Below are positions 21,598-23,861 of a DNA stretch of 64,000 nt, piece after piece (the stretch's first letter is position 1; each line of letters starts with the position of its first letter). Location: assembly GCF_011045215.1 (NCBI RefSeq), contig NZ_CP049201.1. One strand, given 5' to 3'. Position numbers and translations under genes: made by a program. The notes beneath the pieces are model-generated. The model did not search any database, was not told the origin of the DNA, and saw only the letters and a program-made list of their open reading frames with translations. The stretch comes from Escherichia coli. Its GTDB lineage: Bacteria; Pseudomonadota; Gammaproteobacteria; Enterobacterales; Enterobacteriaceae.

Positions 21598-22956
21598 TTA
21601 TGTCAGTAGTTTTTGCAGATGGATGAGCAAACGGTCAATCGCACGATAGCTAACTGCCTCCTGCAAATGCTGACGTGTGATAATGTCAGACTGATCAATA
21701 TCAGCAATGGTTCGTGCAACTTTCAATAACCGCTGCCAGGCACGAATCGATAACCCCAGATGGATCAGCGTTTCTTCCAGCCACTGCGCATCTTCGCTCT
21801 CAAGCTTGCAGAATTTGCGTATTTCCGGACTATCCAGCCAGGCATTCAGTTTATTCTGCCGCTTAAATTGGCGCTCTCTGGCGGCCATTACGCGTTGTTT
21901 AACGGTGGCGCTGCTTTCTCCCGGCACTACCGTTTTACTCAAAATGCCGGGGGGTGGTAATGGGATCTCCAGTGAGAGATCGAAGCGGTCGAGAAAGGGC
22001 CCCGAGAGCCGGTTGAGATAACGTAATGTCTGTTCTGGCGTGCAGCGGTTATGGTTTCCCTGATAATGTCCGGTAGGGCTGGGATTCATCGCCGCAACAA
22101 GCTGGAAACGGGCTGGATAGGTTATTTTTGCTCGTGTGCGTGAAAGATGGATCTGCCCGGATTCAATCGGCTCTCGCAAAGCATCCAGTGTACGCCGTTC
22201 AAATTCAGGTAGCTCATCAAGAAAAAGCACGCCGTTATGCGCCAACGAAATTTCACCAGGCCCTGGAATTGCACCACCGCCCACCATCGCAGTTAACGAC
22301 GCACTGTGATGCGGTGAGCGGAACGGGCGCTGCCGCCATTGTTTTTGTACTGATTCAGCATTTACCAGACTTAATATCGCAGCGCTCTCCAGTGCCTCTT
22401 CATTGCTTAAATCTGGCAAAAGACCATTAATACGGCTGGCGAGCATTGTTTTACCTGTTCCCGGCGGTCCAATCAGTAAAAGGTTGTGCCCACCAGCGGC
22501 GGTAATTTCCAGTCCTCGCTTTCCTTGCTCCTGACCGACAACATCACTGAGATCATGTTGTAGCGCCCGGGATACTGCATCAGTTGGTTTCGGGCGTTCG
22601 AGAGTGTGCTTACCTTCCAGAAACGCACAGACAGCCTGCAGATGATCGGCTATCAAGCATCCTTCTCCGTTAATTAGCCCCACTTCATCTTCGTTATCTT
22701 TCGCGACGATAATTTTTCTGCCCGACTTAATAGCTTCAGTTGCACTGGAGATTGCGCCGGGAACGCCACGCAGAGCGCCTGTAAGCGCCAGTTCTCCGAC
22801 TAATTCATATTCATCTAACTTATTGGCTGTAAGCTGTTCTGAGGCCGCCAGCAACGCAATGGCGATAGGTAAATCATATCGTCCCCCTTCTTTTGGTAGA
22901 TCGGCTGGAGCAAGGTTAATGGTGATTTTTTTCGCCGGATATTCATATCCGCTATT
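21598..22956 (-). pseudogene. comM: comM C-terminal fragment (Mg-chelatase-like AAA+ competence protein), separated from its 5-prime end by the island
   Basis: ORF 21598..23001; ComM-like sequence from ...NSGYEYPAKKITINLAPADLPKEGGRYDLPIAIALL onward; the first codons (GTG at 23001, MIYQLDSISYANLV) are island-derived. Confidence 0.85.
22947..22956. repeat. left junction direct repeat (att core copy) ATCCGCTATT
   Basis: Identical 10-mer at 35360..35369; comM coding sequence is continuous across the two copies if the intervening DNA is removed. Confidence 0.8.
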
Positions 22957-23026
22957 TATAACTAAATTCGCATAACTTATTGAATCTAATTGATAAATCA
23001 CACTATAAATAACGTTAGAAATCGCA

Positions 23027-23084
23027 AATTAACTACACCATTAACTACACCGTTCGGTGCACTGTATGGAACAACTTGGAACAA
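23027..23084. repeat. left-arm repeat module: tandem ATTAACTACACC x2 plus GGAACAA x2 (putative integrase arm-type sites)
   Basis: 26-bp exact match AATTAACTACACCATTAACTACACCG with 35207..35232, then shared GGAACAAC(T/C)TGGAACAA. Confidence 0.6.
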
Positions 23085-23172
23085 ATAGACACAAGCGATA
23101 TACAGGAAGGGACAATTTTTCTATGCAGATTTGCATAGTTCCAAATGAAGCTGGTGGATGATCAGGGATAAC

Positions 23173-23196
23173 CCGATATGGGAATCCCCATATCGG
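23173..23196. repeat. 10-bp-stem inverted repeat CCGATATGGG-AATC-CCCATATCGG
   Basis: Perfect 10-bp inverted repeat with 4-nt spacer; no T-run, so more likely a binding site than a terminator. Confidence 0.5.
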
Positions 23197-23201
23197 CATC
23201 G

Positions 23202-23241
23202 CGTAGTTAATCGTAGTGGCTACCGTAGTAGCCTCCGTAGT
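23202..23241. repeat. phased CGTAGT x4 array
   Basis: CGTAGT at 23202, 23212, 23224 and 23236, spacing about 10 to 12 bp. Confidence 0.55.
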
Positions 23242-23282
23242 TGAGTCGCAGGGATGTAACAACCTGCCAGGAAGGAAATGAT

Positions 23283-23598: not shown

Positions 23599-23858
23599 TT
23601 GACACTTTCCGGCTTAAGACCTTAACAAACCTTAACATCGCAGGTTGACACACTTGACACTTTTTCGCGAAAAACCTTATCAAACCTTAGCATTTCTAAG
23701 CATGGCAACTTGACACTTTTCGCGATTTTTTTCGGCTTTTTGACGTGGTAAATCTGGCGCAAGGCCAGTAACGGCGGGGCTTACAGCGAGGTTGACACTT
23801 TTTCGCGTTCAGAGTGTAAAGTGTCAACCCGGCAAGCTGCTCAACTTGACACTTTTTG
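23599..23858. repeat. array of six direct and one inverted copies of TTGACAC(T)TTTT(T)CGCG, interleaved with AACCTTAnC repeats
   Basis: Copies start near 23599, 23645, 23654, 23710, 23792, 23846; inverted copy 23821; immediately 3-prime of the HTH gene 23862..24389. Confidence 0.6.
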
Positions 23859-23861
23859 ATG

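What the first reader, a model, noticed from the sequence alone, without database searches (positions are those of the whole stretch)
23027..23084. Same repeat module near both island ends, positioned to flank the core in the excised form
A 26-bp exact repeat (tandem ATTAACTACACC x2) followed by a GGAACAA x2 motif occurs at 23027..23084 and again at 35207..35274 in direct orientation. One copy is about 70 bp inside the left core and the other about 85 bp inside the right core. In the circularised element they would sit on either side of the core, which is the expected layout for arm-type integrase binding sites. The right copy also abuts the integrase start codon, suggesting autoregulation.
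Basis: seen in the sequence. Interest (0 to 1): 0.6.

Follow-up and report, generated by a model that had tools for sequence, protein, structure and literature searches.

The report
Integrase docking repeats at island ends
Two matching pairs of 12-base repeats near the ends of a 12.4-kb phage-satellite island in the E. coli yifB gene are very probably the docking ("arm-type") sites for the N-terminal domain of the island's own integrase, which is an expected feature for this kind of element rather than a surprise.

Summary
A 26-nt exact direct repeat (ATTAACTACACC x2) followed by TGGAACAA x2 lies at 23027-23084 and 35207-35274.

The two copies sit inside the ends of a 12.4-kb PICI-type satellite inserted in yifB. 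Its core is ATCCGCTATT at 22947 and 35360. Its integrase carries an Arm-DNA-bind_3 domain.

In the reconstructed attP the two 12-mer dimers flank the core at about 90 and 143 bp. That spacing recurs in most of the 17 two-ended islands measured.

All six classifiable integrase clades in the family (28-97% identity, 64 of 72 loci) have a 12-bp tandem dimer just upstream of int, and a co-oriented copy at the far end wherever that end could be read. The motif sequence differs by clade: ACTACAC, GATACAC, TTTATAC, T/GTACCCC, CAATACA, CTATACAC.

The motif class follows integrase residues 1-65, not AlpA and not the catalytic part. In Proteus, two islands at the fis site differ in that segment alone, and both arms have switched motif.

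So the 12-mers are integrase arm sites. This is in silico only. The GGAACAA phased repeats do not follow the arm domain, and what binds them is unresolved. Autoregulation is plausible and has precedents, but it is untested. The same layout was published for HE-PICIs in 2023, so this is a new member of a known kind.

The parts
22947..22961 (.). Left copy of the att core (attL side): ATCCGCTATTTATAA, inside yifB.
   Evidence: It is a direct repeat with 35360-35374. The joined flanks are contiguous within yifB in 5398 of 5426 E. coli genomes.
23028..23051 (+). Distal-arm class A dimer, ATTAACTACACC x2. It is the proposed pair of arm-type sites for the Int N-terminal domain. Its centre is about 90 bp from the core centre.
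   Evidence: A lineage-specific counterpart is found at the same distance in 10 further islands.
23059..23094 (+). Distal-arm class B run: GCACTG, GAACAA, GAACAA, ACACAA at a 10-bp period. It lies on the side of class A away from the core.
   Evidence: The phase relative to class A is kept at 7, 17 or 27 nt in relatives. What binds it is unresolved.
35208..35231 (+). Int-proximal-arm class A dimer, ATTAACTACACC x2. It lies 22-45 nt upstream of the int ATG, and its centre is about 143 bp from the core centre.
35239..35274 (+). Proximal-arm class B run: GCACAA, GTACAG, GAACAA, GAACAA at a 10-bp period, between class A and the core. Phased A-tracts continue to about 35310.
   Evidence: invariant among three E. 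coli islands; rAACA runs in most clades.
35360..35374 (.). Right copy of the att core (attR side): ATCCGCTATTGATAA.
33956..35185 (-). Tyrosine integrase, 409 aa. Domains: Arm-DNA-bind_3 at aa 8-95 (nt 34901-35164), Phage_int_M, and Phage_integrase.
   Evidence: (phrog_1 integrase; N-domain homologous to PDB 3JTZ and 3JU0).
33404..33592 (-). AlpA-family excisionase and transcriptional regulator, 62 aa.
   Evidence: and (phrog_2790 and phrog_66, excisionase and transcriptional regulator).
35304..35333 (-). The only sigma-70-like match that reads towards int (TTCATA, 18 nt, TATCAT). It is a candidate Pint between the core and the module.
   Evidence: where the count is not above the shuffles. The sequence is invariant in L001 and L002. 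It is inferred and not mapped.
22973..22985 (-). IHF-consensus-like site (ATTCAATAAGTTA, one mismatch) between the core and the distal dimer.
   Evidence: It is largely conserved in L001 and L002. This is weak evidence.
35297..35309 (+). IHF-consensus-like site (AATCAAAATGATA, one mismatch) between the proximal module and the core.
   Evidence: The region is conserved in L001 and L002. This is weak evidence.

Best explanation
The window holds a 12.4-kb phage-inducible chromosomal island (PICI-type satellite) with int, alpA, ant, primase and packaging-related genes. It is inserted in the 5' part of yifB.

The two ATTAACTACACC dimers are the arm-type DNA sites of the island's heterobivalent tyrosine integrase. 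After excision the ends join, so that attP reads: int start, 22 nt, dimer, class B run, about 85 bp, core, about 65 bp, dimer, class B run.

The proposed mechanism is as follows, with each step marked as shown or inferred.
1. Four 12-bp half-sites, about 233 bp apart as two pairs, are contacted by the N-terminal Arm-DNA-bind_3 domains of an Int tetramer (inferred).
2. The C-terminal domains of the same tetramer hold the core and attB (inferred).
3. DNA bending in the spacers closes the loops (inferred). The bending could come from phased A-tracts or the GnACAA run, possibly from IHF, and from AlpA during excision.

What is shown: the sequence, the geometry, family-wide conservation, and co-variation of the motif with Int residues 1-65 on both arms.

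What is inferred: physical binding, the four-site-per-tetramer stoichiometry, the role of class B, and repression of int. The repression would come from Int sitting on the proximal dimer, which lies between any possible island-borne promoter and the int ATG.
For: 1. Int carries Arm-DNA-bind_3 at aa 8-95.

2. The island borders are exact. The joined flanks are contiguous in 5398 of 5426 E. coli genomes.

3. Seven further E. coli islands, at six other chromosomal sites, carry a dimer at both ends in the same orientation.

4. The genome-contig scan returned 70 loci with Int 28-54% identical. The 65 loci with usable int-upstream sequence, plus the window and six E. coli islands (72 in all), were classified. 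Sixty-four fall into six motif classes, each with a 12-bp tandem dimer or trimer upstream of the int ATG: 10-40 nt upstream in most, about 110 nt in L035 and L044. The eight unclassified loci have variant or weaker 11-13-bp repeats. The classes are ACTACAC, GATACAC, TTTATAC, TTACCCC/GTACCCC and CAATACA. E. coli L197 adds CTATACAC.

5. Wherever the far end was reachable, it carries the same lineage-specific motif: L009, L020, L064, L060, L061, L050, L099, L197 and L198-L201.

6. The geometry is conserved. The distal dimer is 86-93 bp and the proximal dimer 140-146 bp from the core centre in 11 of 17 islands, across four motif classes and several genera. Three more keep the about 232-240 bp total, and three were ambiguous.

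7. Identity in Int aa 1-65 is the best predictor of a shared motif class (AUC 0.95). The other segments score lower: aa 66-200 gives 0.89, aa 201-409 gives 0.82 and AlpA gives 0.84. AlpA is 100% identical across different motif classes.

8. There is a natural domain swap in Proteus cf-PICIs at the same fis site. Their Int is 96% identical from aa 66 onward but 53% identical in aa 1-65, and their AlpA is nearly identical. One island has (G/T)TACCCCAC dimers on both arms and the other has TTTATACA dimers on both arms, 15 kb apart.

9. A milder case in E. coli: L004 and L003 are 72% identical in aa 1-65 and 94% in the rest. The repeat flank differs on both arms, AGTGAC against ATTAAC.

10. The same doubled, co-oriented layout was published for the CAATACA clade (HE-PICIs), at 81 and 132 bp from the attP centre. 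The binder was left open between the Int arm domains and AlpA (PMC10111431).
Against: - No binding, footprint or recombination data exist for this integrase or for any close relative.
- There is no DNA-bound structure of an Arm-DNA-bind_3 domain. Only the apo structures 3JTZ, 3RMP and 3JU0 exist.
- The proximal dimer is physically linked to the codons for aa 1-65. Co-variation on that arm alone could therefore be hitch-hiking, and only the distal-arm data escape this objection.
- L001 is a mixed case. It has a type-2 N-terminus and a G-type proximal dimer, but its distal dimer is ATTGAC/ATTAAC. The flanking 3-4 nt of the repeat may therefore not be discriminated strictly.
- The same ACTACAC motif serves N-domains that are only about 45-60% identical, so the code is degenerate.
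- The class B units and the distal position of class B (outside the core-to-dimer segment) are not explained by the arm-site model.
Confidence: 0.8

Rival explanations
1. The 12-mer dimers are binding sites for the island's AlpA-type excisionase and regulator (a recombination directionality factor), not for the integrase.
For: AlpA is encoded next to int in every member. RDFs commonly bind tandem direct repeats in att arms. The published HE-PICI description leaves AlpA open as a candidate.
Against: AlpA proteins that are 100% identical over the aligned core accompany different motif classes: TTTATAC in L034 and L023, TTACCCC in L058. Near-identical AlpA also accompanies different classes in L047 (GATACAC) and L043 (TTACCCC). 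The Proteus pair has nearly identical AlpA but different dimers on both arms. RDF sites are normally on one arm only.
Confidence: 0.06
2. The whole 69-nt module, including GGAACAA x2, is a composite site. Class A binds Int, and the 10-bp-phased GnACAA run binds AlpA (or provides bent DNA) to set directionality and to control int transcription.
For: The spacing between class A and class B changes only in steps of 10 bp (7, 17 or 27 nt), so the helical face is kept. The class B flavour differs between E. coli lineages that differ in AlpA, and it does so on both arms in the first two: TGGAACAA with the 62-aa AlpA, CGAACAA with the L006 type, and GTAGA x3 with the divergent L197 AlpA. Class B is unchanged in the Proteus N-domain swap, where AlpA is also unchanged. 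This rival is compatible with the best explanation and extends it.
Against: The sample is small and confounded by phylogeny. The box CACTGGAACAATATACAG is shared by islands with two AlpA subtypes. Distal-arm class B is absent or irregular in distant relatives. In the window it lies on the side of the dimer away from the core, where bending cannot help loop closure.
Confidence: 0.4
3. The two modules are a passive duplication, either a recombination scar or gene conversion between the island ends, with no function.
For: The 26-nt identity within one island could reflect recent homogenisation.
Against: Left-specific and right-specific flanks are each conserved between islands, while the two copies within one island differ (GTTCGGTGCACTGTA against GATCATTGCACAAGG). 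The dimer architecture and its distance from the core persist in clades whose motif sequences are unrelated. The surrounding sequence has diverged while the 8-nt cores stay exact.
Confidence: 0.03
4. The repeats are replication iterons or packaging (pac/cos) signals of the satellite.
For: PICIs carry iterons and pac or cos sites, and the left module lies near the packaging-gene end.
Against: Other repeat families near the primase gene fit an origin better (27097-27425 and 23599-23861). The dimers are tied in position to the att core on both sides and to Int aa 1-65. Islands with unrelated replication and packaging modules share them: cf-PICI L003 with a DUF927 protein, and L001 with RepA.
Confidence: 0.03

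Closest known systems
Doubled TGTATTGC motif in the attP of helper-embedded PICIs (NAR Genom Bioinform 2023, PMC10111431)
   Same: It is a tandem 12-bp-spaced doubled motif, with two co-oriented copies per attP at fixed asymmetric distances from the crossover (81 and 132 bp there; about 90 and 143 bp centre to centre here). It belongs to the same integrase family: my CAATACA class (L060, L061, L063, L065, L066) is that motif read on the other strand.
   Different: The motif sequence differs (ACTACACC here). That paper reported the doubled motif as absent from other PICIs, including fis PICIs, and left the binder open between the Int arm domain and AlpA. Here, analogous dimers appear in all six classifiable clades. 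fis-site PICIs alone show four motif classes, and the swaps point to Int aa 1-65.
Arm-type sites of lambda Int (P1, P2, P'1-3) and of P2 Int (two direct repeats per arm)
   Same: A heterobivalent integrase with a separate N-terminal arm-binding domain. Repeated sites that are unlike the core sit on both arms of an attP of about 240-330 bp, with accessory bending sites between arm and core (established knowledge; summarised in PMC2951348).
   Different: The arm-binding domain family differs (Arm-DNA-bind_3/DUF4102). There are exactly two adjacent sites per arm at a 12-bp period, all four co-oriented. No biochemical data exist.
Satellite phage P4 Int and Vis, and P4-like island integrases (PAI I536 IntI, CP4-57 IntA and AlpA)
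   Same: The same broad integrase type (a P4-like domain with DUF4102) paired with an AlpA/Vis-family RDF. int lies next to the att arm. Int represses its own expression (P4: Piazzolla 2006 as cited in PMC2951348; PAI I536: PMC7286903).
   Different: The window Int is not a close P4 relative. The P4 and PAI arm-site sequences were not compared here.
KplE1 (CPS-53) IntS and TorI module, where the attL arm overlaps PintS
   Same: The int promoter region and the arm-type sites occupy the same DNA. Int and the RDF both repress int. The paper proposes this as a general rule whenever int abuts its att arm (PMC2951348).
   Different: The integrase lineage and site sequences differ (TAAA-containing P' sites). 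In the window the promoter has not been mapped, and the dimer may lie downstream of it.

Membership tests
Arm-type binding sites of a heterobivalent tyrosine integrase | The integrase has a separate N-terminal arm-DNA-binding domain. | tested here: met
   Pfam Arm-DNA-bind_3 at aa 8-95, E = 1.6e-16. A family profile matches the solved N-domains 3JTZ and 3JU0.
Arm-type binding sites of a heterobivalent tyrosine integrase | Repeated sites, unlike the core sequence, lie on both arms of attP at a distance from the crossover. | tested here: met
   The dimers are at 23028-23051 and 35208-35231, about 90 and 143 bp from the core centre. They share no similarity with the core ATCCGCTATT.
Arm-type binding sites of a heterobivalent tyrosine integrase | Site sequence is specified by the arm-binding domain (co-variation used as a proxy for binding). 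| tested here: met
   The motif class follows Int aa 1-65 (AUC 0.95) and not AlpA or the catalytic part. In the Proteus N-terminal swap both arms change together.
Arm-type binding sites of a heterobivalent tyrosine integrase | Physical binding by the Int N-domain, and a requirement for recombination. | not testable with these tools
   This needs EMSA or footprinting and integration or excision assays. No published data were found.
Gram-negative PICI (int-alpA type phage satellite) | An island of about 10-15 kb with int and alpA at one end, a primase or rep gene, and packaging-interference or capsid genes, but no tail or lysis genes, at a site not used by prophages. | tested here: met
   The island is 12.4 kb. 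It holds int, alpA, ant, a primase, a DUF2213 protease-like protein and a TerS-like protein. Its right arm and int are related to those of EcCIEDL933, the prototype cf-PICI (L003).
Gram-negative PICI (int-alpA type phage satellite) | Induction and transfer by a helper phage. | not testable with these tools
   This has been shown only for relatives such as EcCIEDL933 (bioRxiv 10.1101/2022.09.08.507074).
HE-PICI doubled-motif attP architecture (PMC10111431) | Two co-oriented doubled motifs at fixed, asymmetric distances on either side of the attP centre. | tested here: met
   About 90 and 143 bp centre to centre in the window and in 10 further islands. The published edge distances are 81 +/- 2 and 132 +/- 2 bp.
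HE-PICI doubled-motif attP architecture (PMC10111431) | Motif core TGTATTGC. | tested here: not met
   The window motif is ACTACACC. TGTATTGC (GCAATACA on the other strand) occurs only in the L060, L061, L063, L065 and L066 clade.
Negatively autoregulated int with its promoter inside the att arm (KplE1, P4 type) | The int promoter or leader overlaps the arm-type sites. | tested here: inconclusive
   Only 174 bp separate the int ATG from the core, and the dimer lies 22-45 nt upstream of the ATG. Any island-borne promoter must therefore overlap the module or lie upstream of it. The single sigma-70-like match (35333-35304) is no better than chance. Read-through from yifB is also possible.
Negatively autoregulated int with its promoter inside the att arm (KplE1, P4 type) | Int represses its own transcription. 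| not testable with these tools
   This needs a Pint reporter with and without Int. Precedents exist only in other systems.

The most novel reading that the evidence does not exclude
The first ~65 residues of these integrases and the four 12-mer arm sites form an exchangeable specificity cassette that assorts independently of core (attB) specificity. One attB (fis) is used with at least four arm classes. One arm class (ACTACAC) is used at yifB, smrA/abgR, phoQ/roxA, tqsA, clpS/cspD and fis. Diversifying the arm code would give each satellite a private intasome, so that co-resident or competing satellites aimed at the same site could not excise, block or hijack one another. It would also provide a natural code table for re-programming DUF4102-type integrases.
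Probability: 0.3. Interest if true: 0.55.

Novelty: new member of a known kind. Interest (0 to 1): 0.3.

Why it matters
For this locus, the result adds the protein-binding arms to the attP of a widespread E. coli satellite family. A related right arm is present in 1159 of 5426 complete genomes. Published descriptions of this family give only the core.

More generally, the comparison settles in silico a question left open in 2023, namely whether the Int arm domain or AlpA binds the doubled motif. It also shows that fis PICIs do have doubled motifs, but of several different classes.

It yields a table of six or more pairs of arm-domain sequence and 12-mer motif, including a natural domain swap. 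That table makes the DNA-recognition code of the Arm-DNA-bind_3 domain directly testable, which is useful for predicting attP limits and for engineering integrases.

It does not change how tyrosine integrases are understood to work.

Tried and rejected
- An IMG/VR scan for ACTACACCNNNNACTACACC returned mostly coding Thr/Pro-rich repeats and unrelated phage contigs. Only one contig (L099) held both arms, so it added little.
- The distal arm could not be reached for most genome-contig loci, because islands longer than 11 kb exceed the 10-kb flank. I worked around this for the Proteus pair by looking up a capsid-module protein.
- My first regular expression for AlpA missed most homologues. I replaced it with an iterative HMM search.
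- The promoter scan gave one int-directed match, no better than the shuffles, so no promoter is claimed. By eye I could not find a convincing -10/-35 pair overlapping the dimer.
- A single-sequence PDB search found nothing. The profile search found only apo N-domains, so no structure-based contact map could be made.
- Rfam found no RNA family in either module.
- I considered the inverted ACTACG x4 run at 23201-23242 as extra arm sites and rejected it. It is conserved in L197, whose integrase uses CTATACAC, so it is a separate element.
- IHF-consensus matches in both spacers have one mismatch each and are reported only as candidates.
- The core-finding heuristic mis-assigned the core in L004, L099 and L060, so those rows were not used.

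Full report

Yes. The 26-nt string AATTAACTACACCATTAACTACACCG occurs at 23027-23052 and again at 35207-35232 in direct orientation. The similarity runs on for 69 nt at 77% identity.

The 12-mer ATTAACTACACC occurs exactly four times in the 64-kb window, all within these two dimers. TGGAACAA occurs twice in each module, at 23067, 23077, 35257 and 35267, which is four of the seven matches in the window. A chance 26-mer repeat is expected about 5e-7 times.

**2. What surrounds it?**

The repeats lie just inside the ends of a 12.4-kb insertion in the 5' part of yifB (comM), between maoP and ilvL. The core ATCCGCTATT(T/G)ATAA is present at 22947-22961 and 35360-35374. When the flanks are joined across the insertion, the result is a single contiguous match inside yifB in 5398 of 5426 complete E. 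coli genomes.

The insertion encodes:
- a 409-aa tyrosine integrase (33956-35185, minus strand) with Pfam Arm-DNA-bind_3 (aa 8-95), Phage_int_M and Phage_integrase;
- an AlpA-family excisionase and regulator (33404-33592);
- an Ant-like protein, a primase, a DUF2213 protease-like protein and a TerS-like protein.

This is the gene set of a Gram-negative PICI. Its int-proximal arm is related to that of EcCIEDL933, the prototype capsid-forming PICI. No Rfam family overlaps either module.

The repeat abuts a start codon only for the GTG-extended ORF at 35206. The integrase of all homologues starts at the ATG at 35185, which is 21 nt from the repeat.

**3. Anatomy of the module**

Each module has three parts.
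- Class A: two 12-bp units with the invariant core ACTACACC.
- A short spacer with the conserved pattern G-TC--TGCAC.
- Class B: four GnACAr units at a 10-bp period. They start at 23059, 23069, 23079 and 23089 on the left, and at 35239, 35249, 35259 and 35269 on the right.

In the reconstructed attP the order is: int ATG, 22 nt, A-A, B run, about 85 bp, core, about 65 bp, A-A, B run. All repeats point the same way. Class B therefore lies between the dimer and the core on the int side, but beyond the dimer on the other side.

**4. Relatives**

*E. coli islands.* Seven other E. coli islands were read. Their integrases range from 97% identity to distant, and they occupy six other sites:
- yifB again (L001);
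- smrA/abgR (L002);
- phoQ/roxA (L003, which is EcCIEDL933);
- tqsA (L004);
- clpS/cspD (L005, L006);
- tRNA-Gly (L197).

All carry a dimer at both ends in the same orientation. Left-specific and right-specific spacers are each conserved between islands. Within one island the two copies differ outside the repeats. This argues against a passive duplication.

*Wider family.* A scan of one genome per species returned 70 loci from Enterobacterales and beyond, with Int 28-54% identical. The 65 loci with usable int-upstream sequence, plus the window and the six E. coli islands, make 72. Of these, 64 fall into six motif classes with a 12-bp tandem dimer, sometimes a trimer, upstream of the int ATG. 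In most it lies 10-40 nt upstream; in L035 and L044 it lies about 110 nt upstream. The eight unclassified loci have variant or weaker 11-13-bp repeats. The motif is clade-specific:
- ACTACAC (19 loci)
- TTTATAC (23 loci)
- GATACAC (8 loci)
- TTACCCC or GTACCCC (9 loci)
- CAATACA (5 loci)

E. coli L197, fetched later, adds a further motif, CTATACAC.

*The far end.* Wherever the far end of the island could be read, it carries the same clade-specific dimer in the same orientation. This holds for L009, L020, L064, L060, L061, L050, L099, L197 and L198-L201.

*Geometry.* The distal dimer centre is 86-93 bp from the core centre, and the proximal dimer centre is 140-146 bp from it, in 11 of 17 islands. 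These span four motif classes, several genera and many attB sites. The two dimers are therefore about 233 bp apart in attP. Three more islands keep that total, and three were ambiguous for technical reasons.

**5. What binds class A?**

Two island proteins are always linked to the site: Int and AlpA.

*Statistics.* I scored 2016 pairs from the 64 loci that have a full-length Int and an assigned class. Identity in Int aa 1-65 predicts a shared motif class best (AUC 0.95). The other segments score lower: aa 66-200 gives 0.89, aa 201-409 gives 0.82 and AlpA gives 0.84. AlpA proteins that are 100% identical accompany different classes, for example L034 and L058. The residues that differ between classes lie in the predicted beta-strand segment, GLSxKxS...TWxFxYR in the window numbering, around aa 31-52.

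*Why the distal arm matters.* The proximal dimer is physically linked to those codons, so the distal arm is the informative one.

*The natural swap.* The clearest case is a pair of Proteus capsid-forming PICIs, both inserted next to fis. Their integrases are 96% identical from aa 66 to the end but only 53% identical in aa 1-65, and their AlpA proteins are nearly identical.
- The P. mirabilis islands (L198-L200) have GAGTACCCCACCGTGTACCCCAC on the int side and ATTACCCCACCGTGTACCCCAC 15 kb away.
- The P. columbae island (L201) has TGTTTATACAAATGTTTATACA (three units) on the int side and TGTTTATACAATTGTTTATACA at the far end.

*A milder E. coli case.* L004 and L003 are 72% identical in aa 1-65 and 94% identical in the rest. 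On both arms the repeat flank is AGTGAC in L004 and ATTAAC in L003.

I therefore assign class A to the Int N-terminal domain, with confidence of about 0.8. Binding itself was not measured and cannot be measured here.

**6. Class B and autoregulation**

*Class B.* It does not change in the Proteus swap. An rAACA run at about a 10-bp period follows class A in most clades, whatever the arm class. The distance from class A to class B changes only by multiples of 10 bp (7, 17 or 27 nt), which keeps the helical face.

Its flavour differs between E. coli lineages that differ in AlpA. It is TGGAACAA with the 62-aa AlpA and CGAACAA with the L006 type, on both arms in each case. L197, with a divergent AlpA, has GTAGA x3 on the int side only. 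This fits AlpA binding or a bend-forming element, but the sample is small and confounded by descent. I leave class B unresolved, with about 0.4 on AlpA or bending.

*Autoregulation.* It is plausible from geometry. Only 174 bp separate the int ATG from the core, and the dimer sits 22-45 nt upstream of the ATG. Any island-borne promoter must therefore overlap the module or lie upstream of it. There are precedents in KplE1 IntS, P4 Int and PAI I536 IntI (PMC2951348, PMC7286903). However, the only sigma-70-like match (35333-35304, minus strand) is no better than chance. Read-through from yifB into int is also possible.

**7. Comparison with what is known**

Arm-type sites are the textbook feature of lambda-type integrases. 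A 2023 survey of helper-embedded PICIs described exactly this layout for one clade. It reported a doubled TGTATTGC motif, in two co-oriented copies, at 81 and 132 bp from the attP centre. It suggested either the Int arm domains or AlpA as the binder, and it stated that the motif was not found in other PICIs, including fis PICIs (PMC10111431).

My CAATACA class is that motif on the other strand. The window's dimers are the counterpart in a different clade.

The present comparison adds three things:
- All six classifiable clades have such dimers, each with its own motif.
- The fis-site PICIs alone use at least four classes, which explains why a single motif search failed there.
- The binder is the Int N-terminus rather than AlpA.

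No paper on these E. coli PICIs describes the arms. No DNA-bound structure of this domain family exists.

**8. Verdict**

It is a new member of a known kind, of modest interest in itself. The comparative by-product is an arm-domain to arm-site code, with natural swaps and independent assortment from attB specificity. That is the part worth an experiment.

Noticed in passing
window 23201-23242 (minus strand): Four tandem 12-bp units with the core ACTACG (CAACTACGGAGG / CTACTACGGTAG / CCACTACGATTA / ACTACGCG), inverted relative to the arm dimers. The block is absent from L001 and L002. It is conserved in ETEC1732 and in L197, whose integrase uses a different arm motif, so it is a separate element of unknown role.
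   Followed up: partly
window 23145-23196: A mini-ORF, ATGAAGCTGGTGGATGATCAGGGATAA (8 codons), is followed by a near-perfect palindrome, CCGATATGGGAATCCCCATATCGG. GTGGATGATC and the palindrome are conserved in all the E. coli islands, and GTGGATGATC also occurs in L009. This could be a packaging or regulatory signal at the island end.
   Followed up: no
L002 (E. coli cq9, between smrA and abgR) compared with window 22940-22965 and 35355-35380: An island whose integrase is 97% identical sits at a second chromosomal site. That site's attB (ATTCATTCACGATATTAATAATG) resembles the yifB attB (ATTCATATCCGCTATTGATAATG) at 18 of 23 positions. The overlap sequence in each island matches its own site. 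One integrase therefore uses at least two related targets.
   Followed up: partly
window 27097-27425 and 23599-23861: There are two further repeat families. CCCCACTTTT(T) units at about 84-bp spacing, with a 38-nt inverted repeat, lie downstream of the primase gene. TTGACACTTTT units (five or more copies) lie near the left end. They are candidate replication-origin iterons or operator arrays.
   Followed up: no
window 30765-32558 (minus strand): In this 597-aa ORF only the last ~50 residues match PHROG families, which are Icd-like and labelled transcriptional repressor. The first ~540 residues match nothing. Relatives have small Icd-like genes at this position, so this may be a fused or inserted cargo gene.
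   Followed up: no
L078, L081, L089, L098, L103, L108 and others (IMG/VR contigs): Many non-enterobacterial viral contigs carry non-coding tandem TTACTACACCAxTTACTACACCA repeats, with the same 8-mer and the same 12-bp period. They could be arm sites of unrelated integrases or a coincidence.
   Followed up: no
window 35186-35206; L201 255-300: ORF and gene callers extend int upstream across the arm repeats. In the window this gives a GTG start at 35206. In L201 it gives MYKHLYKHLYK, translated from the TTTATACA trimer. Such extensions give false N-termini to this integrase family in databases.
   Followed up: partly
window 21598-23001 and 35352-35561: The island splits yifB/comM. The 3' part keeps a 467-codon ORF that could restart at a GTG inside the island end. 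RefSeq calls both pieces pseudogenes in relatives. Roughly 27 of 5425 E. coli genomes lack the intact (uninterrupted) site.
   Followed up: partly
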